Notes under the pieces: model-generated
The model's input: the letters and a program-made list of their open reading frames with translations, nothing else
Database searches by the model: none
What the model was told of the DNA's origin: nothing
Program-made: the position numbers and the translations under genes
Assembly (NCBI GenBank): GCA_963749445.1
Contig: CAVVMJ010000004.1
Location: 16,483-80,482, forward strand
Reading direction: 5' to 3'
DNA from: an uncultured bacterium
Lineage (GTDB): Bacteria > Patescibacteriota > Doudnabacteria > UBA920
Length of the DNA: 64,000 nucleotides
Shown: positions 10,938 through 64,000 of the stretch, one piece after another
Layout: every line of letters starts with the position of its first letter
How positions within the stretch are numbered: the first letter of the stretch is position 1

Positions 10938-12749
10938 ATGCCGAGTGAAACATCAAAACTTTACCCCGGTCATTTGCTGGCAACCGCACTTTCTGAGCTG
11001 AAAATGACCTCGCAACTTAGCGGCGAGCCTGAGATTTCAGTGCCGGATGCCAAGTTTGGCGATTACGCCACTAACGTAGCCTTGATTTTGGGCAAAAAGC
11101 TCAAATTGCCGCCGGTTGAGGTGGCCAATAAAATCGCGGACAGGCTAAAACAACTGGACACGGAGCGGGTATTTGCCGATATCAGCGTGGCCGGGGGGTT
11201 CATTAACCTTAATTTGTCGCGGGAATATTTGCTAAAAAACCTTTCGCGGATACTGGAGCAAAAGGACAACTTTGGCTCGCCCTGGAACAATGAAGACAAG
11301 ACCGTCATCGTGGAATATTTCCAGAATAACGTGGCCAAGCCCCCGCACGTCGGGCATTTGCGCAGCGCCGTGGTGGGCGACAGCCTGCTGCGGTTGTTCC
11401 GGTTTTTGGGATACCGGGCGGTATCGGATACCCATATCGGCGACTGGGGCACGCAGTTTGGCATTTTGATTTTGGCGTATAAGACTTTCGGCAAAAAATC
11501 CGTTGTGGAAAAAAATCCCATTGACGAGCTGAATAAGCTTTACGTGGAAATGTCGGCGAAAATAGAAGCGGATCCGGCTTTAAAGGAATCGGCAAAAGCT
11601 GAATTTAAAAAATTGGAAGACAGCGACGCGGAAAACCGCAAGCTTTGGCAATGGTTTGTTATGGAATCCGTGGCGGATTTTGAACGGTACCGGAAGCTGT
11701 TGGGGCTGCTGAGGTTTGACCATAACCTGGGCGAAAGTTTTTACGAAGACAAAATGCCGAGCATTTTATCGGAGCTGCAATCAAAGGGTTTAGTAACCAA
11801 AGGCGAGACTGGGGAATTATATGTTGATCTAGAAAAATATAAATTAGGACGATGCCTTTTGGCGAAGTCCGACGGCGCCACGACTTATCACCTTCGGGAT
11901 TTTGCCACTTATATTTACCGGAAGAAGGAATTTAATTTTTATAAAAATATTTATGTCGTAGACAACCGCCAGTCCCACCATTTTAGGCAGTTGTTCAAGG
12001 TTTTGGAATTGGCCGGGTACCCGGCGGGAAAAGACAGCTTCCACGTGGAGTTGGGATTTATGAGCCTGCCCGAAGGGCCGATTTCCACGCGCAAAGGAAA
12101 TATTATCAGCCTGCAAAATTTAGTTGATGAAGCGGAAAAGCGCGCTCTGGCCATAATTGAAGAAAAAAACCCCGGGCTTAAGAAAAAGAAGGCGGTGGCC
12201 GGCCAGGTCGCGCGCGCCGCCATAAAATATTTTGACCTTTCCCACAATCGCAAAACCGAATTCGTGTTCACTTGGGACAAAGCCTTGTCGTTTGAGGGGA
12301 ACACGGGGCCGTATTTGCAATATACGCACGCACGAATTTTTGGCATTTTAAGGAAGTCGTCTACCACCCCGTCCCGCCAAGGCGGGACACCCCTCCTGTC
12401 CCAGGAGGGGAATACTGCAGCTCCGCGGAGCTCTCCTCCTAAAATAGGAGGAGTACCCGCCGCAGGCGGGGGAGGTGGTATAAATCCGCACGAAATAGCT
12501 GTCCTCCGCAAACTCAACCAATTCCCCGAAGTCCTGGAACAGGTGGCCGTAGATTATATGCCGAATTTGTTATGCAATTATTTGTTTGAACTCGCACAGT
12601 CGTTTAATTCATTTTATCAGGAAATTCCGGTCTTGCAGGAAGAAGACGGCCAATTAAAATCATTCCGACTGCAACTGATTACCGCCACCGCGCAAGTCAT
12701 TAAAAATGGCCTGAATTTATTGGGTATAGAAGCCCCTGAAGAAATGTGA
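10938..12749 (+). CDS. argS: Arginine--tRNA ligase (ArgS), class I, carrying a ~130-bp in-frame palindromic insertion
   Basis: HIGH-type motif PPHVGHLRSAVVGD. Anticodon-binding C-terminus ...YLFELAQSFNSFY. The insert at 12361-12489 encodes TTPSRQGGTPLLSQEGNTAAPRSSPPKIGGVPAAGGGG and is built from nested GC-rich palindromes. Confidence 0.9.
   Translation: MPSETSKLYPGHLLATALSELKMTSQLSGEPEISVPDAKFGDYATNVALILGKKLKLPPVEVANKIADRLKQLDTERVFADISVAGGFINLNLSREYLLKNLSRILEQKDNFGSPWNNEDKTVIVEYFQNNVAKPPHVGHLRSAVVGDSLLRLFRFLGYRAVSDTHIGDWGTQFGILILAYKTFGKKSVVEKNPIDELNKLYVEMSAKIEADPALKESAKAEFKKLEDSDAENRKLWQWFVMESVADFERYRKLLGLLRFDHNLGESFYEDKMPSILSELQSKGLVTKGETGELYVDLEKYKLGRCLLAKSDGATTYHLRDFATYIYRKKEFNFYKNIYVVDNRQSHHFRQLFKVLELAGYPAGKDSFHVELGFMSLPEGPISTRKGNIISLQNLVDEAEKRALAIIEEKNPGLKKKKAVAGQVARAAIKYFDLSHNRKTEFVFTWDKALSFEGNTGPYLQYTHARIFGILRKSSTTPSRQGGTPLLSQEGNTAAPRSSPPKIGGVPAAGGGGGINPHEIAVLRKLNQFPEVLEQVAVDYMPNLLCNYLFELAQSFNSFYQEIPVLQEEDGQLKSFRLQLITATAQVIKNGLNLLGIEAPEEM
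12361..12489. repeat. Family-1 modular palindromic element (units A-B-C-D) inserted in frame in argS
   Basis: TACCACC-[GTCCCGCCAAGGCGGGAC]-[CCTCCTGTCCCAGGAGG]-...-[CTCCTCCTAAAATAGGAGGAG]-[CCCGCCGCAGGCGGG]-GGTGGTA. The same modules recur at 16165, 25381, 50906, 57617, 12841 and 39318. Confidence 0.8.
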
Positions 12750-12750
12750 A

Positions 12751-12900
12751 CCGCTGATTGGTCGCTGACCCATTCGGCAAAGCTCAGGGTCACCCCGAGC
12801 GAAGTCGAGGGGTGATAGGGACGCTGATCAATCGCTGAAGTGCGGAGCTTCCCCTCCTTGCTGAGGAGGGGTGGACGCCGTAGGCGGACGGGGTGGTTGG
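12751..12900. repeat. Intergenic composite repeat: family-2 element (CCCATTCGGCAAAGCTCAGGGTCACCCCGAGCGAAGTCGAGGGGTG) followed by a family-1 module
   Basis: The same family-2 then family-1 arrangement recurs at 39157-39460. The family-2 core also occurs at 4555, 22941, 37871 and 38471. Confidence 0.75.
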
Positions 12901-14581: not shown

Positions 14582-17500
14582 ATGCCAGAGGAAAAATCAC
14601 AACAATCACCACAATCTAATGCTCCCGATTTCAACAAACTGGAGCAGGAGATTTTAAAGTTTTGGGAAGAAAATAACATCTTCCAAAAATCCCTGGACCA
14701 GAGTTTGGGCAAGCCGCCTTACATTTTTTACGACGGCCCGCCGTTTGCAACCGGCTTGCCGCATTACGGCAGTATTTTGCCGTCTGTCATCAAAGACGCG
14801 ATCCCGCGCTACCAAACCATGAAGGGCCGTTTTGTGCGTAGGCGCTGGGGCTGGGATTGCCACGGCTTGCCCATTGAAAATATCGTTGAGCAAAATTTAA
14901 AAATCTCCGGCAAAAAACAAATTGAAGAAATCGGGCGTGGAGAATTTTAACAAAGTTTGCCGCGAAAACGTGCTGGGTTTTGCCGCCGAGTGGGGTAAAA
15001 TGGTCAAACGGATCGGCCGCTGGGTGGAGTTTGAAAATTCTTATAAGACCATGGACACGTCTTATATGGAATCCGTGTGGTGGGCCTTAAAGCAGATTTG
15101 GGACAAGAAATTGATTTATGAGGACAGGAAAATTTTGCTTTACTGCTCGCGTTGCGAAACGCCGATATCCAATTTTGAAGTGGCCATGGACAACTGCTAC
15201 CGCGACGTTACCGAAGAATCGGTTTACGCCAAGTTCAAGTTGCTGCCGCGGCAGAGGATCATTAACGACCTGACCAATGACAAAACTTATATGCTGGCCT
15301 GGACCACCACGCCGTGGACTTTGCCGGGCAACACTTCGCTGAACGTCGGCCCGGATATTAAGTATGTGTTGGTGGAGCAGAAACGGCGAGCGTTACATTT
15401 TAGCCAAAGACCGGCTGGATGTTTTGGACGGGGAGTACGAATTAGTTTCAGAATTTCCGGCCCGGTCCTTGGACGGTTTAGAGTATGAACCGCTGTATCC
15501 GGCCATTATTCCCTAAACGCACATAACGGCTTAAAGGTGCCGGATTTAGTTGGCGACCCGGCCCGCGCCCACGCGTGTATCTGGCGGATTTTGTGACCAC
15601 GAAAGACGGCACCGGCATTGTGCACAACGCGGCCATGTACGGCGAGGAAGATTACGAGCTGGCCAAGGAAAAAAATTTGCCGCGGCTGGATATGCTGGAC
15701 CATAAAGGCCAGTATTTGGAACGGACGCGTGCCCAAGCATTTGCAAGGCGTATTCTTTAAGGATGCCGAGCCGGTTGTACTTAAAGATTTAAAGACGCGC
15801 AACCTAGTTTACAAAATTTTAAATTACACCCACAGCTACCCGCACTGCTACCGCTGCGGCACGCCGCTGTTTTATAACGCCCTGCCCGCGTGGTTCATCA
15901 ACATCCAAAAAATCAAACCCCGCTTGCGGCAGCTCAACGCGCAACAAATGCAGTGGTACCCCGAATATTTAAAGGCCGGCCGGTTTGACAAAAGCGTGGA
16001 GAGTGCGCCGGACTGGAATATTTCCCGCAACCGCTATTGGGCCACGGCTTTGCCGTTTTGGAAGTGCCAGAATAAGGAATGCAAACACGTTGCCTGTATT
16101 GGATCAATATCAGAATTGATTGAACGGTCAATAAATTTTAAAGAAGTATACCCAGATTTTACTCCAACCACCCCGTCGGCTGACGCCGCCGCCCCTCCTC
16201 AGCAAGGAGGGCAAGCTTCCGACTACGCCAAGGCTTCGTCGGACGAGCCGCGGCTTCCCGCCGTAGCTTTAGCAAGGCGGGAGCCTCTCCTCCAAATCTT
16301 CGGAGGAGTACCCCGCGATAGCGGGGGAGGTGTATGAATCACTCGATCTTCATCGGCCTTACATTGATCAGGTAATCCTAAAATGCCCGCAAGTGCGGGG
16401 GGCAAATGATGCGCGTGCCCGAAGTCGTGGACTGCTGGGTGGAAAGCGGCTCTATGCCGTTCGCGGAACTGCACTATCCGTTTGAAAACACAGATTTATT
16501 TCAGCAGCGCTTCCCCGCGGATTTCGTGTCCGAGTACATCGGTCAGGTCAGGGCCTGGTATTATGTGATGTTAGTGATGTCCGCGGTTTTGTTCGACAAA
16601 GCACCGTTTAAAAATTTAATGACTACGGGTAACATTTTGGCCGAAGACGGCAGCAAGATGTCCAAGTCCAAGCAAAATTATCCCGACCCGAATTTATTGA
16701 TTGAAAGGTACGGCGCCGACGCGCTTGCGGTTTTATCTTTTGACCTGCCCGGTGGTGGGCGGCGACGACATCAACTTTTCCGAAAAGAGCGTGCAGGAAA
16801 TCAGCCGCAAGGTTAACATGTTAGTTTATAACGTGTGGTCGTTTTATCGGATGTACCAACCGCGGAATGACGCGGAATTTAACGCGGAAAAACGCGGAGA
16901 CGAATCCCAACATATTCTAGACAAATGGATTGTTTCCGGAACTTGCGCATTGGCAGGGAGAGGTCACAAAATATCTGGACGCTTACGATACCGTGCGGGC
17001 CGGCAAAATAATTACTGGTTTTATAAATGACTTGTCAACCTGGTACGTGCGCCGCAGCCGCGAGCGTATTAAGGAAAATTCCGAGGATTCCAAAAAAGCC
17101 CTGCAAACATTGGGCTTTGTATTGGTTGAATTGTCCAAAATGCTTGCGCCGTTTATGCCGTTTTTGGCGGATTTTATCTATAAAGATTTAACCGGGCAGG
17201 AATCGGTGCATTTATCCGAATGGCCAAAGCCGCGTTTGGAGCTGCACGATGAAAAGCTGGAAAGCGTGATGTCAACGGCGCGCCAGATCGTGGAGCAGGG
17301 TTTGTCCCTGCGCAGGGAAAACAGCCTCAAAGTTAGGCAGCCCTTGGCTGAACTGGAATATTTTATTAAGGAGAAAAACCATTTGCTCAGCGCGGAGCTT
17401 GAACAGGTTTTGGCCGATGAACTGAACGTCAAACTGGTGAGCGGCCGGTCGGATTTTGTGCCTAAAGCGGGCTGGGCGTACAGGGAAACGCCGACTTTTA

Positions 17501-25044: not shown

Positions 25045-25989
25045 ATGAATATTGATAAGCTCAAAAATTTACTCCAGCGCTATGGTTTAAAACCCAATTT
25101 TACTTATGGGCAGAATTTTTTGGTTGACGATGATGTGTTGGACGAAATTGTTGAGGCGGCGGAAATCACACCGGCTGACAATATTCTGGAAATCGGTCCG
25201 GGCATTGGGAATTTAACGCGGCTGTTATGCGAACGCGCGGGATTTGTGCTATCCGTGGAAAAAGACCCAAAATTTTTGCCGATATTAAAAGCCGTAAAGA
25301 AAGATCATAAAAATTTCCGTTTTGAAATTGCGGACGCTTTAAAATTTGATTTTTTGAAAGAACTAAATCAGCTGCAGTCATCTCCTCCTAATATAGGAGG
25401 AGTATCCCGCGAAGCGGGGAGAGGTGGTATTTCGGGGGCAGCTACCACCCCGTCCCGACAAGTCGGGACACCCCTCCTGTCCCAGGAGGGGAATACTGTG
25501 TCCTATAAGGTCGCCGCCAACATCCCGTACTACATTACCGGAAAAATTTTGCGGATGTTACTGGCCGCGAAAATTAAACCGACCAGCATTACCATTTTGA
25601 CGCAAAAAGAAGTGGCACAGACCTTGGCGGCTAAGGCGGGGGATTTATCCTTGCTCGCGATTTCCGTTCAGCTTTACGGCGAGCCGCGGTTGGTTAAAAT
25701 CGTGCCGGCAAAAAGTTTTTATCCGCAGCCCAAAGTGGATAGCGCGATTGTGCGGATTGATATCCATCCGAAACCAAAATATAATTTTGCCGATGAAAAA
25801 CAATTCTTCCGTGTTTTGCGCGCCTGCTTTGCCGGCAAAAGAAAACAGCTTCACAACACGTTGAAGAATAATTTGGGTTTGGAAAAAGGACGGGTTGATA
25901 AAATTTTATCAGCCGCCAAAATAAATCCCGCGGCCCGGCCGCAGGAGCTGAGTATTGCGCAGTGGATTGATTTGAGTAAAAAAATTTAA
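25045..25989 (+). CDS. rsmA: 16S rRNA (adenine1518/1519-N6)-dimethyltransferase RsmA/KsgA with an in-frame family-1 palindromic insertion
   Basis: GQNFLVDDDVLDEIV...ILEIGPGIGNLT (SAM-binding). The insert at 25381-25497 encodes SSPPNIGGVSREAGRGGISGAATTPSRQVGTPLLSQEGNT between conserved blocks. Confidence 0.85.
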   Translation: MNIDKLKNLLQRYGLKPNFTYGQNFLVDDDVLDEIVEAAEITPADNILEIGPGIGNLTRLLCERAGFVLSVEKDPKFLPILKAVKKDHKNFRFEIADALKFDFLKELNQLQSSPPNIGGVSREAGRGGISGAATTPSRQVGTPLLSQEGNTVSYKVAANIPYYITGKILRMLLAAKIKPTSITILTQKEVAQTLAAKAGDLSLLAISVQLYGEPRLVKIVPAKSFYPQPKVDSAIVRIDIHPKPKYNFADEKQFFRVLRACFAGKRKQLHNTLKNNLGLEKGRVDKILSAAKINPAARPQELSIAQWIDLSKKI

Positions 25990-25994
25990 AGGGA

Positions 25995-26215
25995 TTGTTG
26001 CGGAGCCTTCTCTCCTTTCATAGGCACTCATCGAGAATGAGGGGAGATGTCCCGAATGCATCTGAGGGACAGAGAGGTGGCTCCCGTTCGGGAACCACCT
26101 CTCTGTCACCGAAAGCGATTTTATCCTTTTGACTTTCGGCGACATCTCCCCTCACCCGCAGTATTGCTTATGAAAGGGGAGAAGGCTCCGCAGTCGTCCT
26201 CGTTTACCAATCAAT
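25995..26215. repeat. Three-tier nested palindrome (~220 bp) between the convergent rsmA and DUF192 genes
   Basis: Outer arms GCGGAGCCTTCTCTCCTTTCAT / ATGAAAGGGGAGAAGGCTCCGC. Middle arms GAGGGGAGATGTC / GACATCTCCCCTC. Core GACAGAGAGGTGGCTCCCGTTCGGGAACCACCTCTCTGTC. Confidence 0.7.
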
Positions 26216-26220
26216 CTAAA

Positions 26221-26739
26221 TCAGTTTCCCAACCGGACCTCATCTCCGGTTTTTATTTTATTCGCGTCGCTCCATCCCGCGTTTACTTCCAGAACTTGAT
26301 CAATCATCGCCGGCGGATAGTAGAGGGTCAACTTATCGCTCAGGGATTTTGGCGCCGGCACGTTTGGCGTGATGCCGATGATTTTGCCGTCGTTTATCCA
26401 AATCAAATCCAAATCAAAATGCATGCGCGGCATCCAGAAGGCGGGTTTGATGCCGTTGCCTCCGCCGGAGGCGGATCCGCCTCCGGCGGAAAAATCAAAC
26501 AGCATACCATCATCGTATGCCATTGATTCGCGATCAGACAACCCCTCTGCCATATCAGCGGATGTCGTGGCAATTTGCACGTTTAAAGTTTGATCGGATA
26601 TTTTTATTTGGTGATTGTAAAGCGAAACTGTTTTATCAGGTACAACAACCGGCGGAGCGGGGGATTGCTTGGCGCAGCCAGCGGCTAAAAGCAAAAACAG
26701 CAGCGGCAAACCGATATGTTTATTTAGAATTTTGACCAT
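26221..26739 (-). CDS. DUF192 (COG1430) family secreted protein with a perfect 30-bp palindrome in frame
   Basis: N-terminal signal/lipobox-like MVKILNKHIGLPLLFLLLAAGC. C-terminal LTLYYPPAMIDQVLEVNAGWSDANKIKTGDEV. The palindrome TCCGCCGGAGGCGGATCCGCCTCCGGCGGA at 26461-26490 encodes SAGGGSASGGG. Confidence 0.55.
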   Translation of the reverse strand: MVKILNKHIGLPLLFLLLAAGCAKQSPAPPVVVPDKTVSLYNHQIKISDQTLNVQIATTSADMAEGLSDRESMAYDDGMLFDFSAGGGSASGGGNGIKPAFWMPRMHFDLDLIWINDGKIIGITPNVPAPKSLSDKLTLYYPPAMIDQVLEVNAGWSDANKIKTGDEVRLGN

Positions 26740-31026: not shown

Positions 31027-31064
31027 ATGATTGCATTTTAGACGGCCGTCTAAAATGCAATCAT
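31027..31064. promoter_or_regulatory. Perfect 38-bp palindrome ATGATTGCATTTTAGACGGCCGTCTAAAATGCAATCAT just after the regulator stop; candidate operator/terminator
   Basis: An exact reverse-complement palindrome with the same core and flanks as the site at 30421-30458. It lies upstream of the TGGTATAAT promoter at ~31204 for the VirB6-like gene. Confidence 0.55.
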
Positions 31065-39156: not shown

Positions 39157-39460
39157 CCGCTGATTGGTCGCTGGCCCATTCGGCTATGCTCAGGGTCACC
39201 CCGAGCGAAGTCGAGGGGTGATAGGTACGCTGATATGACGCTGAATCCGATAGTTAAAGTTGAACGAAATGTCAAAGATTGTCAAAGATTTTTTGTATGA
39301 GAAGGAATCCTTTGAGATCCGCGGAGTTCTCCTCCTGGAACAGGAGGAGTACCCCGACTTGTCGGGGGGAGGTGGTAGATTTTCCGCAGTTTCATACCGC
39401 CCCGTCCGCTTCGCGGCCACCCCGCCTATCTTAGGCGGGGAGCTCCGCGGTTCAGCGACC
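39157..39460. repeat. Intergenic composite repeat (family-2 element followed by family-1 modules)
   Basis: GATTGGTCGCTGGCCCATTCGGCTATGCTCAGGGTCACCCCGAGCGAAGTCGAGGGGTGATAGG ... TCTCCTCCTGGAACAGGAGGAGTACCCCGACTTGTCGGGGGGAGGTGGTA. The ORF 39260..39505 is only the translation of this repeat. Confidence 0.75.
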
Positions 39461-47490: not shown

Positions 47491-48813
47491 ATGGCCAAAT
47501 CATCCGTTGTTTTCATCTGTTCCAACTGCCAATATAAAGCTCCGCGCTGGCAGGGCAAGTGTCCGAGTTGCGGGCAGTGGAATACTTTAGAAGAGAGGCA
47601 AGAGATTAGAGATAAGAGACAAGTGGGAAGAGCGTCCGAGCCTTTGGATTTAGGCTCGGTTGATTTAAGTTTGCAAAAACGCATTGTAACCGGCATTTCG
47701 GAATTTGACAGCGTGGTCGGGGAAGGAATGGTGCCCGGCAGTTTGGTGCTCCTCGGCGGAGATCCGGGCATTGGCAAGTCCACGTTGGCTCTGCAGTTGT
47801 CTATGCGGTTGCCGGATGGCGTACTTTATGTCTCCGGCGAGGAGTCCGCGCATCAAATCAAACTGCGGGCTTCGCGCATAAGCAAAACCCAAAGCCTACA
47901 GGTGTTGGCGGAAACCGATTTAGGTGTCGTTTTGGCCACGGTGGAGGCAAACCATCCTTCCTTGGTCATTATCGATTCCATCCAAACTATGTACAGCGAG
48001 GAAACCAGCGGCGTGGCCGGCGGCGTTGCCCAGGTGACCAACGCGGTGCAGCAGGTGATGCGTCTGGCCAAACAGAACCACATTACTTTTATTATAATCG
48101 GCCATGTTACCAAAGAAGGTTACTTGGCAGGGCCGAAAACTTTGGAGCATATGGTGGACACGGTGCTGTATTTGGAAGGGGAACGGTTCGCGAGTTTCCG
48201 GATTTTGCGGTGCGTCAAAAACCGGTTTGGCACGACCAACGAAGTCGGCGTATTTGAGATGGTCAGGGAAGGATTGGTTGAGGTTAAAAACCCGTCGCAG
48301 TTATTTTTGGGGGAGGAGCAATTGCAGGCCAGCGGCAACGTGATAACTTCGGTGATGGAAGGCAGCCGCGCCCTGCTTTTGGAAATCCAGGCGCTCACAT
48401 CCACCACCAACTTTGGTTACCCCAAGCGTACCACGGCCGGGTTTGATAACAATCGCCTGCAATTATTGACCGCGATTTTGTCCAAGCGCGCGGGACTGAA
48501 TTTGTCCAACCAGGACATTTACATTAACGTGGTCGGCGGCATTAAAATAGACGAGCCGGCCGCGGATTTGGCCGTGGCCTTGGCCATTGTTTCGTCGCTG
48601 AAAGATTCGGTAATGGCCGGCACGGTCGTAATAGGCGAGCTGGGGCTTTCCGGCGAAGTCCGCTTTGTGCCGAACCTGGAAAAGCGCGTCAAAGAAGCCC
48701 AAAAACTGGGTTTTAAGCGCGTAATTTGCCCTCGGGGACGGGAAAAACTGGGCGGCGGTCAAATAGAGGTACTACCGGTAAAAACTTTAACCGAAGCCAT
48801 AAAATTGATATAA
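47491..48813 (+). CDS. radA: DNA repair protein RadA/Sms
   Basis: N-terminal C4 zinc finger CSNCQYKAPRWQGKCPSCGQWN. Walker A GGDPGIGKSTLALQ, the KNRFG motif and a C-terminal Lon-protease-like domain. Confidence 0.9.
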   Translation: MAKSSVVFICSNCQYKAPRWQGKCPSCGQWNTLEERQEIRDKRQVGRASEPLDLGSVDLSLQKRIVTGISEFDSVVGEGMVPGSLVLLGGDPGIGKSTLALQLSMRLPDGVLYVSGEESAHQIKLRASRISKTQSLQVLAETDLGVVLATVEANHPSLVIIDSIQTMYSEETSGVAGGVAQVTNAVQQVMRLAKQNHITFIIIGHVTKEGYLAGPKTLEHMVDTVLYLEGERFASFRILRCVKNRFGTTNEVGVFEMVREGLVEVKNPSQLFLGEEQLQASGNVITSVMEGSRALLLEIQALTSTTNFGYPKRTTAGFDNNRLQLLTAILSKRAGLNLSNQDIYINVVGGIKIDEPAADLAVALAIVSSLKDSVMAGTVVIGELGLSGEVRFVPNLEKRVKEAQKLGFKRVICPRGREKLGGGQIEVLPVKTLTEAIKLI

Positions 48814-48884
48814 ATAGTGTCAAGGGTCACCCTTGACACTATTTGAGGAAATGGTTTAGATTGCCTTGAAATAAGGGTTTTTTG

Positions 48885-50634: not shown

Positions 50635-52839
50635 CTATTCAAAATGTACGCTTTTGCCGGCGATTTTTTCTTTCAAAAGCGGATAGTTGTCTAAATTCAA
50701 ATCATCTTTCAAAATCGCCAAAGCTTCCTGGCGGGCGGGTTCGATCAAAGATGTATAGGAGGGGTTAAAGTATTTAAAATTCCAGCCGGATTGCTGGGAG
50801 CCGTAGACTTCGCCAAAGCCGCGGGTTTTTAGGTCCAGTTCGGCGAGTTCAAAGCCGTCCTGGGTTTTAGTGAAAGATTCAAGGCGTGCGATGGTATCAT
50901 TTTTAACATCTGCTCCAACCACCTCCCCCCGCTTCGCGGGGTACTCCTCCTTAGAAAAGAAGGAGAGGCTCCGCGGATTGTTCGAGGTTAACTGCGGAGC
51001 TTCCCCTCCTTGCTGAGGAGGGGTGTCCCGACGAAGTCGGGACGGGGTGGTTGGACTCATAAATAAAAAACAATAGCTTTGATGTTCGGCGCGGCCGACG
51101 CGGCCGCGGAACTGGTGGAGCTGGGCCAGGCCAAATCTTTCCGCGCCTTCAATGACCATTACGCTGGCGTTGGGGATGTCCACGCCGACTTCCACCACGG
51201 ACGTGGAAACCAAAATTTGGATTTTGTTTTCCAAAAAGTCTTTCATTACGCTCTCTTTTTCCGCGCCCTTGAGCCGGCCGTGCATCAGGCCGATGTTAAA
51301 CTTGGGAAAAACTTTTTTTAAATTTTTCAGTTCGGTCTTGGCGGCTTTGACGCCAAGTTTATCACTTTCTTCAATCAGCGGCGTAATTACAAACACCTGA
51401 CGGCCGGTGTTTATCTGGTTTGCGATAAATTCATAAGCCTGCCCGCGGTTTTTGTGTTCAACCAGCTTGGTCACAATCGCTTTGCGCCCCAGGGGCTTCA
51501 TCTTTATTTGGGAAATATCAAGTTCCCCGTAAAAAGCCAGCTGTAGGGTGCGGGGGATGGGAGTTGCGGATAATGATAGCAAATGCGGTACTTTTCCACT
51601 AGTTTTCATCAACTCCGCCCGCTGCTCCACTCCAAACCGGTGTTGCTCGTCAATAATTACCAGAGCCAAGTTTTTGAATTTTACTTTTTTTTGCAGCAAA
51701 GCGTGCGTGCCTATATATAGACCGGGGCGGCCTTCCGCAATTTGTCTGGTTAAATTAGATTTTTGTATTTTTCCCAGTTGGTCCAAAGAGAAAGAATTGG
51801 TCAAAAGCGCAGTTGAACATAACTTCTGGCCAGAAGTTATGTTCAACAAGTATTTTTTTGTTGTTTCAAAATGCTGGCGGGCTAAAATTTCCGTGGGCGC
51901 CAAAAAGACGGCTTGATAATCGTCGGAGATTGCCTGTAAGGCTGCTATCAGCGCCACCAAAGTTTTGCCGCTGCCTACGTCGCCTTCCAAAAGCCGGTTC
52001 ATGGGCCGCGGTTTTTCCAAATCCTGCAGAATTTCCCAGGCGGCTTTTTTTTGCGCCGGTGTGAGTTCAAAAGGCAAAGTTAAGACAAAGTTTTTGATTA
52101 GCGTCTGGTCAAATTTTATCGGGTAAGCCTGTTTTACGGCCAGCTCCAGTTTGTGTTTTTGCGCCAGCAATTGATTGTAAAAAATTTCTTCAAATGCCAG
52201 GCGGGCTTTGGCCTCCGCCAGCTTTTCGGCGTCATCGGGAAAGTGCGAAAACTTGACGGTGTCGGCAATGGGCAAAAGCCGTTGGCGCCGCAAAATGTCG
52301 GCCGGTAAATTGTCGGTTAAACTATCGGCGAGGTTTAAAACTGCGCCTATCGCGCGCCGGAAAGTTTTGGGGTAAACTTTTTCCGGCAAGCGGGGATAGA
52401 GGGGAACCAAGCGGGAAGTGTGTAGGGGGAAATCGGATACTTTTTCGTAGGTTGGGTTAGTGAGTTGGAGGCTGAAATTGTAGATTTCCGGCGCGCCTGC
52501 CAGGAAAACCTCGTCGCCTTTTTGCAGCTGGTCGGCTACGTACCCTTGGTTAAACCACACGACTTTTAAAGAGCCGGTGTCATCGGAAACCACGGCTTCG
52601 GCCAAAGACATCCGGCTGCGGAACGAAAAACGCCTGCTGATTTGTTTAACGGTAACTTTAATGCTGGCATTTTCGCCCGGGGTTAAATCCTTGATTTTTT
52701 TGATTTGGGAAAAATCCAAATACCTTCGCGGGAAATACAGCAGCAAATCCCGAGCCGCGGTGAGGCCGAGCTTTTTTAAAGCCGCAACCTGCGGCTTGGT
52801 AAAGATTTTTATTTGCTCAATGGCGTCGTCAAGTTGCAT
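50635..52839 (-). CDS. recG: ATP-dependent DNA helicase RecG with an in-frame family-1 palindromic insertion
   Basis: N-terminal wedge domain, helicase motifs GDVGSGKTLVA, DEQHRFGV and QLHQFRGRVGR. The insert at 50906-51054 encodes TTPSRLRRDTPPQQGGEAPQLTSNNPRSLSFFSKEEYPAKRGEVVG. Confidence 0.9.
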   Translation of the reverse strand: MQLDDAIEQIKIFTKPQVAALKKLGLTAARDLLLYFPRRYLDFSQIKKIKDLTPGENASIKVTVKQISRRFSFRSRMSLAEAVVSDDTGSLKVVWFNQGYVADQLQKGDEVFLAGAPEIYNFSLQLTNPTYEKVSDFPLHTSRLVPLYPRLPEKVYPKTFRRAIGAVLNLADSLTDNLPADILRRQRLLPIADTVKFSHFPDDAEKLAEAKARLAFEEIFYNQLLAQKHKLELAVKQAYPIKFDQTLIKNFVLTLPFELTPAQKKAAWEILQDLEKPRPMNRLLEGDVGSGKTLVALIAALQAISDDYQAVFLAPTEILARQHFETTKKYLLNITSGQKLCSTALLTNSFSLDQLGKIQKSNLTRQIAEGRPGLYIGTHALLQKKVKFKNLALVIIDEQHRFGVEQRAELMKTSGKVPHLLSLSATPIPRTLQLAFYGELDISQIKMKPLGRKAIVTKLVEHKNRGQAYEFIANQINTGRQVFVITPLIEESDKLGVKAAKTELKNLKKVFPKFNIGLMHGRLKGAEKESVMKDFLENKIQILVSTSVVEVGVDIPNASVMVIEGAERFGLAQLHQFRGRVGRAEHQSYCFLFMSPTTPSRLRRDTPPQQGGEAPQLTSNNPRSLSFFSKEEYPAKRGEVVGADVKNDTIARLESFTKTQDGFELAELDLKTRGFGEVYGSQQSGWNFKYFNPSYTSLIEPARQEALAILKDDLNLDNYPLLKEKIAGKSVHFE

Positions 52840-57474: not shown

Positions 57475-58251
57475 CTAATCTCGGGCAACAGTTAGGCACC
57501 AGACGGAGGAGGCGCCGTTGCGCTTGAGGACTTGGGCGGCTTCAAGGAGGGTGGCGCCGGTGGTGGTGACATCGTCGATTAATATCAGATTTTTATTTTT
57601 TATCGTCAAGGCATCTCCAACCACCCCGTCCGCCTGCGGCGGCCACCCCTCCTTAAAAAGGAGGGGAGTTGGGGACAGCGCAAAGGCGTCGCGGACGTTT
57701 GTTAGGCGCTGTTCGCGCTTTAGGTCTTTTTGGGTTTTGGTGGATTTGATTCTTATCAGCGCGTCCATAACCGGCAAATTTAATTCTTTGCCCATTGCCC
57801 GGCATAAAATTTCGGATTGGTTAAACCCGCGCCAGCGCAGGCGTCTGGGGTGCAAAGGCAGGGGGACTAGCAGGTAGTTGGTAGTAAGTAGGGGGTAGCC
57901 AACCTTAATTTGATCGGCTAAAAATTTTCCCAGTTCCTCGTAAATGCCCGGCAAAAAACTGTATTTGCCTTTGATTAAAATGTTGGCGACGGATTCGTCG
58001 TGGTAATTTAAAATGGATATTAACCTGTCGGCGCAATGGGGCGTCAGGCATCCCGGATGGGTAAAGCCGCCAAGGGACTGTTTTTGGCAGACAATGCAGT
58101 GCTGGAATTCCAATCTTGATAATTCCGATAAACATCTAGGACACACAAAGTTCCTCTCCGCCCCGCACCGCAGGCATTGGATAGGGAACAGGGTATCCAA
58201 TACAAAAGTTCTGGCGTCAATAAGGAAAGGTTTTATTAAAGTTCGATACAT
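57475..58251 (-). CDS. comFC: ComF/GntX-family protein (N-terminal zinc-finger plus phosphoribosyltransferase domain) with an in-frame family-1 palindromic insertion
   Basis: CLRCGAERNFVCPRCL...CIVCQKQSL...HPGCL zinc motifs. PRTase LILIDDVTTTGATLLEAAQVLKRNGA. The insert at 57617-57674 encodes EGWPPQADGVVGD. Confidence 0.7.
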   Translation of the reverse strand: MYRTLIKPFLIDARTFVLDTLFPIQCLRCGAERNFVCPRCLSELSRLEFQHCIVCQKQSLGGFTHPGCLTPHCADRLISILNYHDESVANILIKGKYSFLPGIYEELGKFLADQIKVGYPLLTTNYLLVPLPLHPRRLRWRGFNQSEILCRAMGKELNLPVMDALIRIKSTKTQKDLKREQRLTNVRDAFALSPTPLLFKEGWPPQADGVVGDALTIKNKNLILIDDVTTTGATLLEAAQVLKRNGASSVWCLTVARD

Positions 58252-59029: not shown

Positions 59030-59157
59030 TATAGCGCGTTAAAAAACTCTGTCAAGTCTTATTAGGATAAGAAAAGCACTCAATTGAAAATCCCCTTTTA
59101 AACAAAAGGGGATTTTCAATTACTATCTTATCCAATATGAATTTATCTATATAAATT

Positions 59158-61950: not shown

Positions 61951-62478
61951 ATGTTTAAAAAATTTTCTAAAACTAGAGAGCCAGAAAATTTAGAAAAGGC
62001 CTACGAGTACGCCGTGTTTTTGCTGTCTTTGCAATTGCGAACGGCCGGCGAAATCCGCGAAAAAATGCAGCGGCGGGGATATTCATCGGCCGTGATAGAA
62101 AAGACAATTGATCAGTTGCATGACCAAAAATATCTGGATGACGAAAGATATGCGGTGGTTTTTTTAGACAATTTAAAGCAATACAAAAATTTGGGGTATT
62201 ACGGCATAAAGAAAAAATTTATGCTTAAAAAATTGCCGATGTCGCTCATCGAGAAAGTCCTTGATGAAGGCCTGTCCAAAGAAGAAGAATTAAAAATTGC
62301 CAAAAGATTTTTGAAAAAAGAAGGAGTTGCCGTTAAATCTTCATCAGCTGATGAAGAAACGTCGGCCGTCACTTACAGTACATTTGATGAGGCCCAAAGC
62401 AAACAAAAGCAAAAAATATTCGCCAAACTAAAAAGCCGCGGTTTCCGCGGCGAGGTGATCGCGAAAATGATGTTTTGA
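61951..62478 (+). CDS. recX: Regulatory protein RecX
   Basis: Three-helix-repeat architecture: AYEYAVFLLSLQLRTAGEIREKMQRRGYSSAVIEKTIDQL...DDERYAVVFLDNL. Confidence 0.7.
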   Translation: MFKKFSKTREPENLEKAYEYAVFLLSLQLRTAGEIREKMQRRGYSSAVIEKTIDQLHDQKYLDDERYAVVFLDNLKQYKNLGYYGIKKKFMLKKLPMSLIEKVLDEGLSKEEELKIAKRFLKKEGVAVKSSSADEETSAVTYSTFDEAQSKQKQKIFAKLKSRGFRGEVIAKMMF

Positions 62479-62487
62479 TATTCGTTT

Positions 62488-62514
62488 TGTAGGGGAGGAT
62501 ATTATCCTCCCCTA
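62488..62514. repeat. REP-type hairpin with GTAG head, GTAGGGGAGGATATTATCCTCCCCTAC, immediately flanking the RAYT gene
   Basis: A perfect stem with the conserved 5' GTAG tetranucleotide typical of REP sequences. A sister copy GTAGGGGCGGATATTATCCGCCCCTAC lies at 62724-62752, inside the RAYT ORF. Confidence 0.65.
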
Positions 62515-62516
62515 CA

Positions 62517-63008
62517 TCAAGGGAAATTTTTTGGATTTTCCTTATCCAATTCCCATTGTTTCGGGTTGTTGCCGATATATTCACGAATGCGATTTAAATC
62601 GGCATCGTCGCGTATGACGTGGTCGTAAAAAGATTTTTGCCAGGAGAAATTGGGTAGACCGATTAATCTTAAATTTTTCGATGCCGCCTGTTTAAAATAT
62701 CCGATGATTTTGGGCAGGCCTCTGTAGGGGCGGATATTATCCGCCCCTACGGGGACAATAATGATAATTCCATGAACATGGTTGGGCATAATCTGAAAAA
62801 TGTCCAATGATGTATTTTGGTAATGTTCGGGGATTTGCTTCCAAAATTTTTCAATTGTTTTTCCATGCCCATTCAAAACCATTTCTCCGCCCACAATCTC
62901 GCCAAAACAGCAAATCCTATCCTGCACGCAAACCGTCACAAAATAATAACCGGCCCGGGAATAATCAAATTCCTTTAGCCGGTTATGTTTTCTTAACGAA
63001 AACAACAT
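62517..63008 (-). CDS. REP-associated tyrosine transposase (RAYT, IS200/IS605-like HUH Y1 transposase)
   Basis: YYFVTVCVQDR, HUH motif MPNHVHGII, catalytic Tyr context SWQKSFYDHVIRDDADL. The in-frame REP hairpin encodes VPVGADNIRPYRG. Confidence 0.75.
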   Translation of the reverse strand: MLFSLRKHNRLKEFDYSRAGYYFVTVCVQDRICCFGEIVGGEMVLNGHGKTIEKFWKQIPEHYQNTSLDIFQIMPNHVHGIIIIVPVGADNIRPYRGLPKIIGYFKQAASKNLRLIGLPNFSWQKSFYDHVIRDDADLNRIREYIGNNPKQWELDKENPKNFP

Positions 63009-63012
63009 AAAA

Positions 63013-63951
63013 TTACAAGTTCATCGTCCTTAATCGTTTAATCCTATCCCCAATCGGCGGGTGCGTATTAAATAAACCCGCAAACCAGCTGCGGCCGCCG
63101 TGCGGGTTTTCGGGATGGGAGGATGTGGATTCGTCCCTGTCTTCGTGGAACGGGTTGACGATATACAAGTGCGCAGTGGCGTTGTTGGCTTCGACCAGGG
63201 GAGTGGAATCATCCGATATTTTTTCCAAGGCGCTGGCTAGGCCTTCGGGATAGCGGGTCAGCAGCGCGCCGGAGGCATCGGCCAAGTATTCGCGCTGGCG
63301 GGAGACCGCCAGTTTTATCAGGGTGGCGATGAGAGGGGAGAGGATTGCCAATAAAATGCCGATGCAAAATAAAATTAAACCTAAGTTACCATCATTTTTG
63401 TTACTTCTGCGTCCGCCGAAAAAAGAAAAACGCAAAAACCAATTGGACATTAGGGCAATCATTCCCACCAAAACCACAACCAAAGTCATCAACCTAATAT
63501 CATAATTTCCAATGTGCGAAAGCTCGTGCGCGGTAACACCTTCCAGTTCGGTCTTGTTCAGCTTTTGCAAAATGCCCGTGGTAAAGCAAATTACCGCGTG
63601 CTTTGGGTCGCGGCCCGTGGCAAAGGCGTTGGGCGCGTTGTCGTTTATAATATAAATTTTTGGCGTGGGAATGCCCGCGGCAATGCAAAGATTTTCCACT
63701 ATATTATAGAGTTGCTGATTTGTGGCGCGGTCCACGGCTTGGGCTTTGGAAACCGCCAGGGTGATGGAGTCCGCGAAGTAATAAGAGAACAGCGCCGAAC
63801 CTACGCTAAAAATTACGGCGATATATAAAATCGCGTCATTTTGGTAAACTTGGGCGAATACCCAACCCAGCGCCGAAATCACGACCAAAAAGCTGAATAT
63901 CAATATCCAGCTTTCGCGTTTGTTTTTGTTGATGAGGTCATATGTAAGCAT
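63013..63951 (-). CDS. htpX: HtpX-family M48 zinc metalloprotease
   Basis: TM helices, HEXXH motif AHELSHIGNYD and downstream Glu. Probable start at MLTYDL. Confidence 0.8.
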   Translation of the reverse strand: MLTYDLINKNKRESWILIFSFLVVISALGWVFAQVYQNDAILYIAVIFSVGSALFSYYFADSITLAVSKAQAVDRATNQQLYNIVENLCIAAGIPTPKIYIINDNAPNAFATGRDPKHAVICFTTGILQKLNKTELEGVTAHELSHIGNYDIRLMTLVVVLVGMIALMSNWFLRFSFFGGRRSNKNDGNLGLILFCIGILLAILSPLIATLIKLAVSRQREYLADASGALLTRYPEGLASALEKISDDSTPLVEANNATAHLYIVNPFHEDRDESTSSHPENPHGGRSWFAGLFNTHPPIGDRIKRLRTMNL

Positions 63952-64000
63952 ATGAGATTTTCTTGTCCACAGATTCACTGATTCCACTGATACACAGTTT

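What the first reader, a model, noticed from the sequence alone, without database searches (positions are those of the whole stretch)
62488..63008. RAYT transposase with GTAG-type REP hairpins, including one inside its own ORF
The Y1 HUH transposase (HVHGII / SFYDHVIRD) is flanked at 62488-62514 by GTAGGGGAGGATATTATCCTCCCCTAC. A near-identical hairpin, GTAGGGGCGGATATTATCCGCCCCTAC (62724-62752), lies in frame inside the transposase ORF and encodes VPVGADNIRPYRG after the HUH motif. RAYTs mobilise REP sequences. Here the REP appears to have inserted into the RAYT gene itself. This gives a plausible engine for the in-frame palindrome insertions seen across the window.
Basis: partly seen in the sequence, partly recalled or inferred. 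Interest (0 to 1): 0.6.

Follow-up and report, generated by a model that had tools for sequence, protein, structure and literature searches.

The report
RAYT gene carrying its own REP
A single-copy REP-associated tyrosine transposase gene carries one copy of its cognate GTAG-footed palindrome in frame inside its coding sequence and a second copy just after its stop codon; this arrangement is real, but it was already described in 2018 for one subclass of these enzymes.

Summary
ORF 62517-63008 (-) encodes a 163-aa Y1 HUH protein. Its only sequence match among solved structures, and its best fold match, is E. coli TnpA_REP (4ER8). Two 27-nt 'double-foot' palindromes lie at 62489-62515 (8 nt past the stop) and 62724-62750. 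The second is in frame and encodes V87-Y95. They differ by one compensatory pair (A:T versus C:G).

This is not a one-off insertion. Of 74 homologous loci, 64 have a hairpin at the same place, the loop between the HUH strand and the next helix. The stems differ between loci but often match REPs beside the same gene. Three orthologues keep the internal REP at 26/27 nt while the rest of the ORF is 64-75% identical.

Quentin et al. 2018 (BMC Genomics 19:475) described exactly this for TnpA_REP subclass 2.4: double-foot REPs flanking the gene and inserted in frame between HuH and Y. I therefore class it as a new, probably Patescibacterial, member of a known kind.

The other in-frame palindromes in the window have no GTAG foot, the opposite arm polarity and no sequence similarity. 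No further REP copy occurs in the 64 kb. The catalytic Tyr is Y144, not the Tyr of SFYDH.

The parts
62517..63008 (-). RAYT / TnpA_REP-like Y1 HUH gene: 163 aa plus stop at 62517-62519. It is the only copy in the window.
   Evidence: ORF list; Pfam and NCBIfam; 1302 homologues, many labelled RayT or transposase; 4ER8 is the only PDB sequence hit and the top Foldseek hit; tblastn finds no second copy in the window.
62724..62750 (.). Intragenic 'double-foot' REP, GTAGGGGCGGATATTATCCGCCCCTAC. It is in frame and encodes V87-Y95 (VGADNIRPY).
   Evidence: It lies in loop 85-97 of the AF2 model, between the HUH strand (77-84) and helix 98-115. It is 26/27 nt identical in three orthologues whose ORFs are 64-75% identical.
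62489..62515 (.). 3' flanking double-foot REP, GTAGGGGAGGATATTATCCTCCCCTAC. It lies between the convergent stop codons of recX (62476-62478) and the RAYT gene (62517-62519).
   Evidence: The same A:T variant sits at the same place in the syntenic orthologue L174. No T tract follows it on either strand.
62772..62780 (-). HUH motif codons (H77 V78 H79).
   Evidence: Sequence. H77 and H79 are invariant in alignment A1 and align with H59/H61 of 4ER8.
62610..62642 (-). W123 Q124 ... D129 H130 ... R133 (WQKSFYDHVIR), the counterpart of the E. coli W94/Q95/E100/H101/R104 region.
   Evidence: HMM alignment to 4ER8. Quentin 2018 reports these residues as conserved in the REP-associated subclasses and implicated in GTAG recognition.
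62577..62579 (-). Codon of the predicted catalytic Tyr144 (REYIGNNP).
   Evidence: Y144 and N148 are invariant in A1. They align with Y115 and N119 of 4ER8, which Messing 2012 names as the catalytic Tyr and a metal ligand.
62435..62451 (-). Terminator-like GC hairpin followed by TTTTT, downstream of the 3' REP on the RAYT strand and inside the 3' end of recX. A likely real terminator, distinct from the REP.
   Evidence: Consensus scan only.

Best explanation
The locus is a REPtron of the kind described as TnpA_REP subclass 2.4. A single-copy, vertically inherited Y1 HUH single-strand DNA endonuclease (HUH at H77/H79, nucleophile Tyr144) sits with its cognate 'double-foot' REP, a 27-nt perfect hairpin with a 5' GTAG foot and a 3' CTAC foot. 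One REP lies 8 nt after the stop codon. A second lies in the DNA that encodes the surface loop between the HUH strand and the following helix.

By analogy with E. coli TnpA_REP, the protein should bind the folded hairpin on single-stranded DNA, read the GTAG foot through the WQ..DH..R region, and cleave and rejoin nearby. That is the activity thought to spread REPs.

The intragenic copy is tolerated for two reasons. It lies in a peripheral loop, and it sits in one of the two reading frames that avoid the TAG of GTAG.

In this lineage the intragenic REP is held constant at the DNA level, including synonymous positions. I therefore infer that it is kept as a nucleic-acid element. The most likely role is a cis-linked substrate or binding site that keeps enzyme and target co-inherited, and it may also feed back on expression.

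Shown here: the anatomy, the family-wide position, the match between internal and flanking REPs within loci, the frame bias, the loop location and the conservation. Inferred: binding, cleavage and any selected role of the internal copy.
For: Enzyme identity:
- 4ER8 is the only PDB sequence hit; HUH, WQ..H..R and Y115/N119 align with H77/H79, W123/Q124/R133 and Y144/N148.
- The AF2 model has pLDDT 88.8 and 4ER8 is its top fold hit.

REP identity:
- GTAG and CTAC feet flank a 13-bp stem.
- The same 27-mer, with three positions left free, occurs at 92 loci in other genomes, several per genome, mostly in gut and rumen Clostridia.
- At the one free stem pair, 86 of 92 copies are complementary: 72 C:G and 14 A:T.

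Family-wide feature:
- 64 of 74 homologous loci have a hairpin of at least 9 bp between the HUH and WQ motifs, against 4 in an N-terminal control stretch and 3 after codon shuffling.
- The GTAG foot is at codon phase 1 in 33 cases, phase 2 in 13 and phase 3 in 0. Phase 3 would create a TAG stop.
- An 18-nt core of the internal hairpin recurs elsewhere in the same locus in 26 of 64 loci, against 71 of 4032 cross-locus pairs.

Constraint in this lineage:
- The internal REP is 26/27 identical in L174, L175 and L009, while the ORF outside it is 75%, 71% and 64% identical and third codon positions are 61%, 57% and 49% identical.
- L174 keeps the same pairing of a C:G internal variant with an A:T 3' variant, and the same htpX-RAYT-recX synteny.

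Loop location: strand 77-84, loop 85-97, helix 98-115.

Literature: Quentin 2018 describes double-foot REPs and in-frame REP insertions between beta3 and alphaC as unique to subclass 2.4.
Against: - No biochemical data exist for any subclass 2.4 enzyme. E. coli TnpA_REP needs a bulged, imperfect hairpin, and strengthening the stem abolished binding or cleavage. These REPs are perfect 13-bp stems, so the recognition rules may differ.
- The protein scores below the curated cutoffs of Pfam Y1_Tnp (22.4 versus 23) and NCBIfam REP_Tyr_transpos (48.6 versus 80).
- No dispersed REP copy is present in the 64-kb window. Activity on a genomic REP population is therefore unshown, and the enzyme could be idle.
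- Conservation of the internal REP could also come from gene conversion with unseen genomic copies.
- L175 lacks the 3' REP and L009 has a different REP type there, so the two-REP layout is not obligatory.
Confidence: 0.8

Rival explanations
1. Passive passenger. The intragenic REP is a selfish or neutral insertion in a permissive loop with no role of its own. Its identity across relatives is kept by repeated re-insertion, or by gene conversion from other REP copies in each genome.
For: Quentin 2018 offers only tolerance: a flexible peripheral loop with little impact on activity. Internal hairpins often match the locus's own flanking REPs. Two reading frames are used, and some homologues carry several or tandemly expanded copies, which suggests turnover. 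Identical REP cores occur in proteins only 45-60% identical.
Against: In this lineage no other copies are seen in 64 kb. The internal C:G variant and the 3' A:T variant have stayed distinct in both the window and L174, so they have not converted each other. The internal copy persists at 26/27 nt where the 3' copy is lost (L175) or replaced by another type (L009).
Confidence: 0.3
2. RNA-level element. The two hairpins act in the mRNA, with the internal one slowing translation or acting as a processing site and the 3' one stabilising the transcript end. The RAYT-REP resemblance would be secondary.
For: REPs are known as 3' mRNA stabilisers and translation modulators in E. coli, and Di Nocera 2013 suggests that REP hairpins may down-regulate RAYT expression. 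Both hairpins lie in the transcribed region, upstream of a terminator-like site at 62435-62451.
Against: This does not explain the strictly conserved GTAG/CTAC feet, which are a DNA-recognition feature of TnpA_REP. It also does not explain why the same 27-mer is dispersed in unrelated genomes. Rfam gives no match that reaches a gathering score. It is compatible with the main explanation rather than exclusive of it.
Confidence: 0.15
3. Peptide-level selection. VGADNIRPY is conserved because the loop residues matter for the protein, and the palindrome is a by-product.
For: The peptide VGAD(N/T/I)IRPY is shared by the window, P0002, P0003 and P0008.
Against: Every synonymous third position in the REP except the loop centre is invariant in all four sequences, against 49-61% identity outside it. 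Across the family the peptide is hypervariable in sequence, length and reading frame while the palindrome persists. pLDDT is lowest in this loop.
Confidence: 0.03
4. An autonomous IS200/IS605-type insertion sequence whose end hairpins happen to lie in and after the gene, or a 3' hairpin that is only a bidirectional terminator.
For: The protein has the Y1 HUH fold shared with IS608 and ISDra2 TnpA. The 3' hairpin sits between convergent genes.
Against: There is one copy in the window. The neighbours are the same in a 75%-identical orthologue. There is no hairpin 5' of the gene, which starts 4 nt after the htpX-like stop. NCBIfam IS200 scores 16 bits against a cutoff of 55. No T tract follows the REP, and a separate terminator-like site lies downstream.
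Confidence: 0.03

Closest known systems
TnpA_REP subclass 2.4 REPtrons (Quentin, Siguier, Chandler, Fichant 2018, BMC Genomics 19:475)
   Same: Y1 HUH core without a C-terminal extension. 'Double-foot' REPs (5' GT[AG]G and 3' C[TC]AC) lie next to the gene. A REP is inserted in frame in the gene between HuH and Y, in the beta3-alphaC region. That region is hypervariable in length and sequence across members. The taxonomic distribution is patchy (searches compared).
   Different: The host is probably a Patescibacterium (CPR). The paper's text, searched for 'Patescibacteria' and 'Parcubacteria', does not mention that group. Only the gene-associated REPs are visible, with no dispersed family in 64 kb. 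The paper treats the insertions as tolerated. Here the internal copy is invariant at synonymous sites among orthologues, a point the parts of the paper I read do not report.
E. coli TnpA_REP / RayT (YafM) with REP/BIME, PDB 4ER8
   Same: Best structural and only sequence match among solved structures. The HUH motif, the WQ..(E/D)H..R GTAG-recognition region and the catalytic Tyr plus Asn on the following helix are shared. The REP has a GTAG foot.
   Different: About 22% identity. The window protein has no C-terminal extension, so it lacks the counterpart of E161. H123 is replaced by W152. E. coli REPs are imperfect, bulged, single-foot hairpins, strictly extragenic and present in hundreds of copies. 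Here the hairpins are perfect, double-footed, one of them intragenic, and only two are seen.
Group 4 RAYTs of Bertels, Gallie and Rainey 2017 (GBE 9:2110)
   Same: Single-copy, slowly evolving, vertically inherited RAYTs. They are common outside the Proteobacteria and have only modestly repeated flanking 16-mers. This fits a low REP copy number and the conserved synteny seen here.
   Different: Correspondence with this protein was not tested. The passages read from that paper do not mention intragenic REPs.
Intragenic REPs and Rickettsia palindromic elements (Di Nocera 2013; Ogata 2000, the latter from my own knowledge)
   Same: Short palindromic repeats inserted in frame in protein-coding genes and tolerated in loops.
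   Different: Those insertions hit unrelated host genes at scattered sites. Here the host gene is the REP's own enzyme, and the site is fixed across the family.
IS200/IS605 TnpA (IS608, ISDra2)
   Same: Same Y1 HUH fold and a single-strand hairpin-plus-guide logic.
   Different: Those are multi-copy mobile elements with left-end and right-end hairpins flanking the gene, a Y...Q motif and often tnpB. None of this is present here.

Membership tests
Y1 HUH endonuclease superfamily (IS200/IS605 TnpA and TnpA_REP) | HUH motif on a beta strand plus a single catalytic Tyr on a C-terminal helix, in an RRM-like fold | tested here: met
   H77/H79 and Y144 are invariant in A1 and align with H59/H61 and Y115 of 4ER8. 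AF2 model pLDDT is 88.8. The top 30 Foldseek hits are all Y1 transposases.
Y1 HUH endonuclease superfamily (IS200/IS605 TnpA and TnpA_REP) | Pfam PF01797 Y1_Tnp above the gathering score | tested here: not met
   22.4 bits against a cutoff of 23 for this sequence. Most close homologues carry a precomputed PF01797 hit, so this is a marginal miss rather than evidence against the fold.
RAYT / TnpA_REP (Nunvar 2010; Ton-Hoang 2012) | GTAG-footed REP hairpin adjacent to the gene | tested here: met
   A REP at 62489-62515 lies 8 nt from the stop, and a second lies inside the ORF.
RAYT / TnpA_REP (Nunvar 2010; Ton-Hoang 2012) | W-Q ... (E/D)-H ... R region that reads the GTAG foot | tested here: met
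   W123, Q124, D129, H130 and R133 align with W94, Q95, E100, H101 and R104 (residue list).
RAYT / TnpA_REP (Nunvar 2010; Ton-Hoang 2012) | Single copy per genome, vertically inherited | tested here: inconclusive
   One copy in the 64 kb. The same htpX-RAYT-recX neighbourhood occurs in a 75%-identical orthologue. The whole genome was not available.
RAYT / TnpA_REP (Nunvar 2010; Ton-Hoang 2012) | A dispersed family of the same REP in the host genome | tested here: inconclusive
   No further copies in the 64-kb window. The source genome is not in the searched genome collection. The same 27-mer is dispersed in other genomes. REPtrons in genomes without a REP family are documented.
RAYT / TnpA_REP (Nunvar 2010; Ton-Hoang 2012) | NCBIfam NF047646 REP_Tyr_transpos (equivalog) above cutoff | tested here: not met
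   48.6 bits against a cutoff of 80. It is the best-scoring NCBIfam model, but the protein is not an equivalog of the E. coli-type enzyme.
RAYT / TnpA_REP (Nunvar 2010; Ton-Hoang 2012) | Sequence-specific binding and cleavage of single-stranded REP DNA | not testable with these tools
   Needs biochemistry.
TnpA_REP subclass 2.4 (Quentin 2018) | 'Double-foot' or canonical long REPs with a G-C rich stem base near the gene | tested here: met
   5' GTAG and 3' CTAC feet, with the stem starting GGGG/CCCC. Definition.
TnpA_REP subclass 2.4 (Quentin 2018) | REP inserted in frame within the gene between HuH and Y, in the variable beta3-alphaC region | tested here: met
   REP codons V87-Y95 lie in loop 85-97. 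The same position holds in 64 of 74 homologues.
TnpA_REP subclass 2.4 (Quentin 2018) | No conserved C-terminal extension after the core | tested here: met
   The protein ends 19 residues after Y144. C-termini in A1 are short or are REP read-through tails. Criterion.
TnpA_REP subclass 2.4 (Quentin 2018) | Assignment by the authors' subclass HMM profiles or phylogeny | not testable with these tools
   The profiles are not available here. Membership is inferred from the diagnostic features above.
IS200/IS605 insertion sequence | Multi-copy element with left-end and right-end hairpins flanking tnpA; NF033573 above cutoff | tested here: not met
   16.2 bits against a cutoff of 55. Single copy. No 5' hairpin, with a 4-nt gap to the upstream gene. 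Conserved synteny.

The most novel reading that the evidence does not exclude
The intragenic REP is not merely tolerated. It would be a selected, cis-acting part of the system: a heritable 'master copy' or self-binding site embedded in the enzyme's own ORF. That would guarantee co-inheritance of enzyme and substrate, and could allow the enzyme to seed REPs after transfer to a new genome or to autoregulate. The evidence that allows this reading is as follows. The REP is invariant at synonymous sites among orthologues whose ORFs are 64-75% identical. It persists where the flanking REP is lost or replaced. Distinct C:G and A:T variants are stably kept at the two sites. The parts of the 2018 description that I read give only tolerance, not constraint.
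Probability: 0.3. Interest if true: 0.55.

Novelty: new member of a known kind. Interest (0 to 1): 0.3.

Why it matters
On its own this is a correct recognition of a documented oddity: RAYTs of one subclass carry their own REP in frame. It extends that subclass to a probable CPR/Patescibacteria genome in which only the gene-associated REPs are visible. The small added value is evidence that the internal REP is constrained as DNA and is not just tolerated. That makes a simple question testable with a 163-aa protein and a 27-nt substrate: does a RAYT use the REP inside its own gene as substrate, regulator or seed? It also shows that the RAYT should not be invoked to explain the other in-frame palindromes in this window. 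Those belong to a different sequence family and need their own explanation.

Tried and rejected
- **Chance palindromes.** Rejected: 0 of 100 shuffles matched, and fold z-scores are -5.5 to -8.1.
- **Recent one-off insertion.** Rejected by the orthologues and by 64 of 74 homologues.
- **3' REP as intrinsic terminator.** No T tract follows it, and a separate terminator-like site lies at 62435-62451.
- **Known RNA family.** Only sub-threshold Rfam hits, for example NsiR9 at 29 bits against a gathering score of 90.
- **Genome-wide REP count for the source organism.**
  - The genome-contig scan did not contain this genome.
  - The 199-kb contig could not be fetched; only a 1.5-kb Logan contig came back.
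  - Look-ups with two versions of the htpX-like product found nothing.
- **RAYT as engine of the other window palindromes.** None has GTAG/CTAC feet, and the recurrent in-ORF family has the C-rich arm first.
- **Later literature on a function for intragenic REPs.**
  - Only Quentin 2018 uses 'double foot'.
  - Corneloup 2021 contains none of the terms I searched for: 'subclass', 'double foot', 'inserted', 'in frame'.
  - No paper linking RAYTs with the CPR turned up.
- **My first motif regex missed 21 homologue loci.** A looser one recovered all but 8. Those 8 show the same feature by eye, with variant motifs or a stop codon.
Full report
**1. The observation**

The window holds exactly two copies of a 27-nt perfect palindrome. 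One is at 62489-62515 (GTAGGGGAGGATATTATCCTCCCCTAC) and the other at 62724-62750 (GTAGGGGCGGATATTATCCGCCCCTAC).

No match was found in 100 dinucleotide-preserving shuffles. As single-stranded DNA each forms a 12-14-bp stem with a 3-nt loop, at -13.8 to -15.6 kcal/mol and z = -5.5 to -8.1. The two copies differ only at stem positions 8 and 20, a compensatory A:T to C:G exchange.

ORF 62517-63008 on the minus strand encodes 163 aa with HVHGII and SFYDHVIRD. On that strand the second palindrome reads GTA GGG GCG GAT AAT ATC CGC CCC TAC, which is V87-G-A-D-N-I-R-P-Y95, in frame. The first palindrome lies between the convergent stop codons of a recX-like gene (61951-62478, +) and this ORF. The ORF starts 4 nt after the stop of an htpX-like gene (63013-63987, -).

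**2. What the protein is**

- Pfam Y1_Tnp scores 22.4 bits, against a gathering score of 23.
- NCBIfam REP_Tyr_transpos is the best NCBIfam model at 48.6 bits, against a cutoff of 80. IS200 scores 16 bits against 55.
- A profile of 33 homologues hits one solved structure only, E. coli TnpA_REP (4ER8, E = 3.6e-4). The alignment pairs H77/H79 with H59/H61, WQKSFYDHVIR with WQPRFWEHAIR, and REYIGNNP with VDYIYINP.
- Messing et al. 2012 name Y115 as the catalytic tyrosine and N119 as a metal ligand. The nucleophile here is therefore Y144, with N148, and both are invariant in the family. It is not the Tyr of SFYDH.
- An AlphaFold2 model (pLDDT 88.8) has 4ER8 as its top Foldseek hit, followed by the ISDra2 and IS608 TnpA structures.
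- Only one copy of the gene is in the window.

**3. The intragenic hairpin is a family trait**

The protein alignment shows a hypervariable peptide directly after the HUH strand in every homologue: VGNGLKPFPT, VGEGLKPSPT, VGNGLDRSLQ, VGTEQCSVPT and others. I fetched 80 homologous loci from metagenomes and added the window and L009.

- 74 loci had the HUH and WQ motifs in one frame. Of these, 64 carry a hairpin of at least 9 bp (at most 1 mismatch) between the two motifs. The controls gave 4 for an equal-length N-terminal stretch and 3 after codon shuffling.
- 36 of the 74 loci have both GT[AG]G and C[TC]AC feet on such a hairpin.
- The stems are entirely different between loci.
- An 18-nt core of the internal hairpin recurs elsewhere in the same locus in 26 of 64 loci, typically just 5' or 3' of the gene and sometimes in arrays. 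Across loci the figure is 71 of 4032 ordered pairs.
- The GTAG foot falls in codon phase 1 in 33 cases, phase 2 in 13 and phase 3 in none. Phase 3 would read TAG.

What recurs is therefore a DNA palindrome, the cognate REP of each locus. The peptide is a by-product.

**4. Where it sits in the protein**

In the model the HUH strand is residues 77-84, the loop is 85-97 and the next helix is 98-115. The REP encodes 9 of the 13 loop residues. In the 4ER8 alignment this stretch is about 6 residues longer than in E. coli. At 48 residues from the PNH motif to the WQ motif, the window protein is near the family minimum of 47; the median is 63.5 and the maximum 96. It is thus a loop made of REP rather than a clean 13-aa addition.

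**5. Conservation in this lineage**

Three relatives were aligned at the DNA level:

| Locus (protein) | aa identity | ORF nt identity outside REP | Third-position identity | Internal REP | 3' REP |
|---|---|---|---|---|---|
| L174 (P0002) | 75% | 75% | 61% | 26/27 | 26/27, same A:T variant |
| L175 (P0003) | 69% | 71% | 57% | 26/27 | absent |
| L009 (P0008) | 59% | 64% | 49% | 26/27 | different REP type |

The aa identities are and the nucleotide figures. The only change in the internal REP is the central loop base. L174 has the same htpX-RAYT-recX synteny. It also has the same pairing as the window: the C:G variant inside the gene and the A:T variant after it.

The two sites have therefore stayed distinct since those lineages split. 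That argues against mutual gene conversion and for constraint on each site. L175 has lost the 3' REP and L009 carries a different REP type there, yet both keep the internal one.

**6. The same REP elsewhere**

A scan of 185,579 species-representative genomes for GTAGGGGNGGATANTATCCNCCCCTAC found 92 loci.

- Nearly all are in gut or rumen Clostridia, often several contigs per genome. Few lie in a RAYT-like ORF: tblastn with the window protein matched only 5 of the 92 loci.
- At the free stem pair, 72 copies are C:G, 14 are A:T and 6 are mismatched.
- This 27-mer is therefore a genuine dispersed REP in other organisms.
- The window's own genome is not in that collection and its 199-kb contig could not be fetched. 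Whether the REP is dispersed in the source genome remains open. It has no further copy in these 64 kb.

**7. Comparison with the literature**

Quentin, Siguier, Chandler and Fichant (2018) describe subclass 2.4 of TnpA_REP as follows:

- It has canonical long REPs or 'double-foot' REPs (5' GT[AG]G and 3' C[TC]AC).
- REPs flank the gene and, 'a remarkable and unique feature', are inserted within it without disrupting the frame, between HuH and Y.
- The insertion falls in a beta3-alphaC region that is highly variable in length and sequence.
- There is no C-terminal extension.
- The subclass is common in Cyanobacteria and Bacteroidetes and scattered in other phyla.

Every feature I could test is met here. 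Their HMM assignment is the only one I could not run.

Di Nocera et al. 2013 document intragenic GTAG REPs in other genes and REPtrons in genomes without REP families. Bertels et al. 2017 describe a Group 4 of single-copy RAYTs with only modestly repeated flanking sequence, which may correspond to this subclass but was not tested. I found no later paper that discusses a function for the intragenic copies.

**8. Mechanism**

Shown here:
- a TnpA_REP-like active site;
- GTAG-footed hairpins at the gene;
- a fixed loop position, with stop-avoiding frames, across the family;
- internal and flanking REPs that match within loci;
- DNA-level constraint on the REP in this lineage.

Inferred by analogy with E. 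coli TnpA_REP: the enzyme binds the folded REP on single-stranded DNA, reads the GTAG foot with the WQ..DH..R region, and cleaves and rejoins with Y144. The internal copy would then be a cis-linked substrate or binding site.

One caveat applies. E. coli TnpA_REP needs an imperfect, bulged stem, and these stems are perfect. The recognition rules may therefore differ.

The rival readings are these:
- A passive passenger refreshed by conversion or re-insertion is plausible for the family as a whole. It is less plausible here.
- An RNA-level regulatory hairpin is not excluded and is compatible with the main explanation.
- Peptide-level selection is rejected by the synonymous-site invariance.
- An IS200-type element or a terminator is rejected.

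**9.

Of 36 hairpins with stems of at least 10 bp in the window, only the two REPs have GTAG/CTAC feet. The recurrent palindromes, some of them inside ORFs, form a different family:
- CACCCCTCC-N7-GGAGGGG(T/A)G at 12388, 12851, 25469, 39418, 51003 and 57644;
- CTCCTCC-N7-GGAGGAG at 12433, 16287, 25382, 39329 and 50944;
- CACCCCGAGCGAAGTCGAGGGGTG at 12791 and 39197.

These have the C-rich arm first and no similarity to the REP. TnpA_REP recognition depends on the GTAG foot, so nothing in the sequence links this RAYT to them.

**10. Verdict**

The finding is real and was read largely correctly. It is a new, probably Patescibacterial, member of a known kind. The one modest addition is evidence that the intragenic REP is constrained as DNA. 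Interest 0.3.

Noticed in passing
window 12388-12410, 12851-12873, 25469-25491, 39418-39442, 51003-51025, 57644-57668; 12433-12453, 16287-16308, 25382-25402, 39329-39349, 50944-50965; 12791-12814, 39197-39220: A second, unrelated family of short palindromes with the C-rich arm first: CACCCCTCC-N7-GGAGGGG(T/A)G, CTCCTCC-N7-GGAGGAG and CACCCCGAGCGAAGTCGAGGGGTG. They often occur in pairs 45-90 nt apart. Some lie inside conserved ORFs, for example the RsmA-like 25045-25989 (+) and the RecG-like 50635-52839 (-), where they encode low-complexity inserts. They have no GTAG foot.
   Followed up: partly
window 51812-51847, 31027-31064, 26068-26107, 26461-26490, 48812-48844, 59082-59121: Long palindromes of 30-40 nt, all perfect except 26068-26107 (one mismatch), unrelated to each other and to the REP. 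The one at 51812-51847 is in frame in the RecG-like ORF, encoding LNITSGQKLCST.
   Followed up: partly
L001-L092 (genome contigs): The exact 27-nt REP of this probable CPR gene is a dispersed repeat in many gut and rumen Clostridia, and also occurs in a Synergistaceae and a Bifidobacteriaceae MAG. In 15 of 92 loci it sits at the apex of a longer, locus-specific palindrome, with at least 4 further complementary flanking pairs (about 0.4% expected by chance). Examples are L010, L018, L037, L047, L064, L087 and L089. The reason is unexplained.
   Followed up: partly
L071:1513-1789, L014:463-730, L062:2566-2691: RAYT-like remnants in Clostridial MAGs that lack the HUH part. The same REP joins the N-terminal strand region (about aa 6-44) directly to the alphaC-to-Tyr region (about aa 97-156), with a +1 frameshift at the REP. 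This looks like a REP-bounded internal deletion.
   Followed up: partly
L153 (whole 10.5 kb), L110:5577-5700, L166:4009-4190: In other members of the family the internal REP type forms dense arrays near the gene. L153 has 24 copies in 10.5 kb, many spaced about 40-45 nt apart. L110 and L166 have tandem copies 3' of the gene at about 49 and 64 nt spacing.
   Followed up: no
P0077, P0056, L132, L142/L160, L108, L113: Some homologues have several REPs, or tandemly expanded half-REP units, in the loop region: VGTGRDAAS three times, VGA(V/I)QN four times, GAGSV repeats, ETVPYQ twice plus ETVPYK. L113 has REP-like repeats at a second site just before the WQ motif. Some C-termini run into the 3' REP, for example P0026 ...VGAGLKPAPT.
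   Followed up: no
L009:960-1010 (minus strand): The Patescibacterial orthologue P0008 keeps the identical internal REP but has a different REP type, AGGGGCAGGTTTGGAAACCTGCCCCT, right after its stop. L175 has no 3' REP at all.
   Followed up: yes
window 62435-62451 (-): A terminator-like GC hairpin followed by TTTTT, serving the htpX-RAYT strand, lies inside the 3' coding end of the convergent recX-like gene.
   Followed up: no
window 62473-62541 (+): A sub-threshold Rfam match to the cyanobacterial sRNA NsiR9 (29 bits against a gathering score of 90) lies over the 3' REP. It probably reflects a REP-like hairpin in that model.
   Followed up: no
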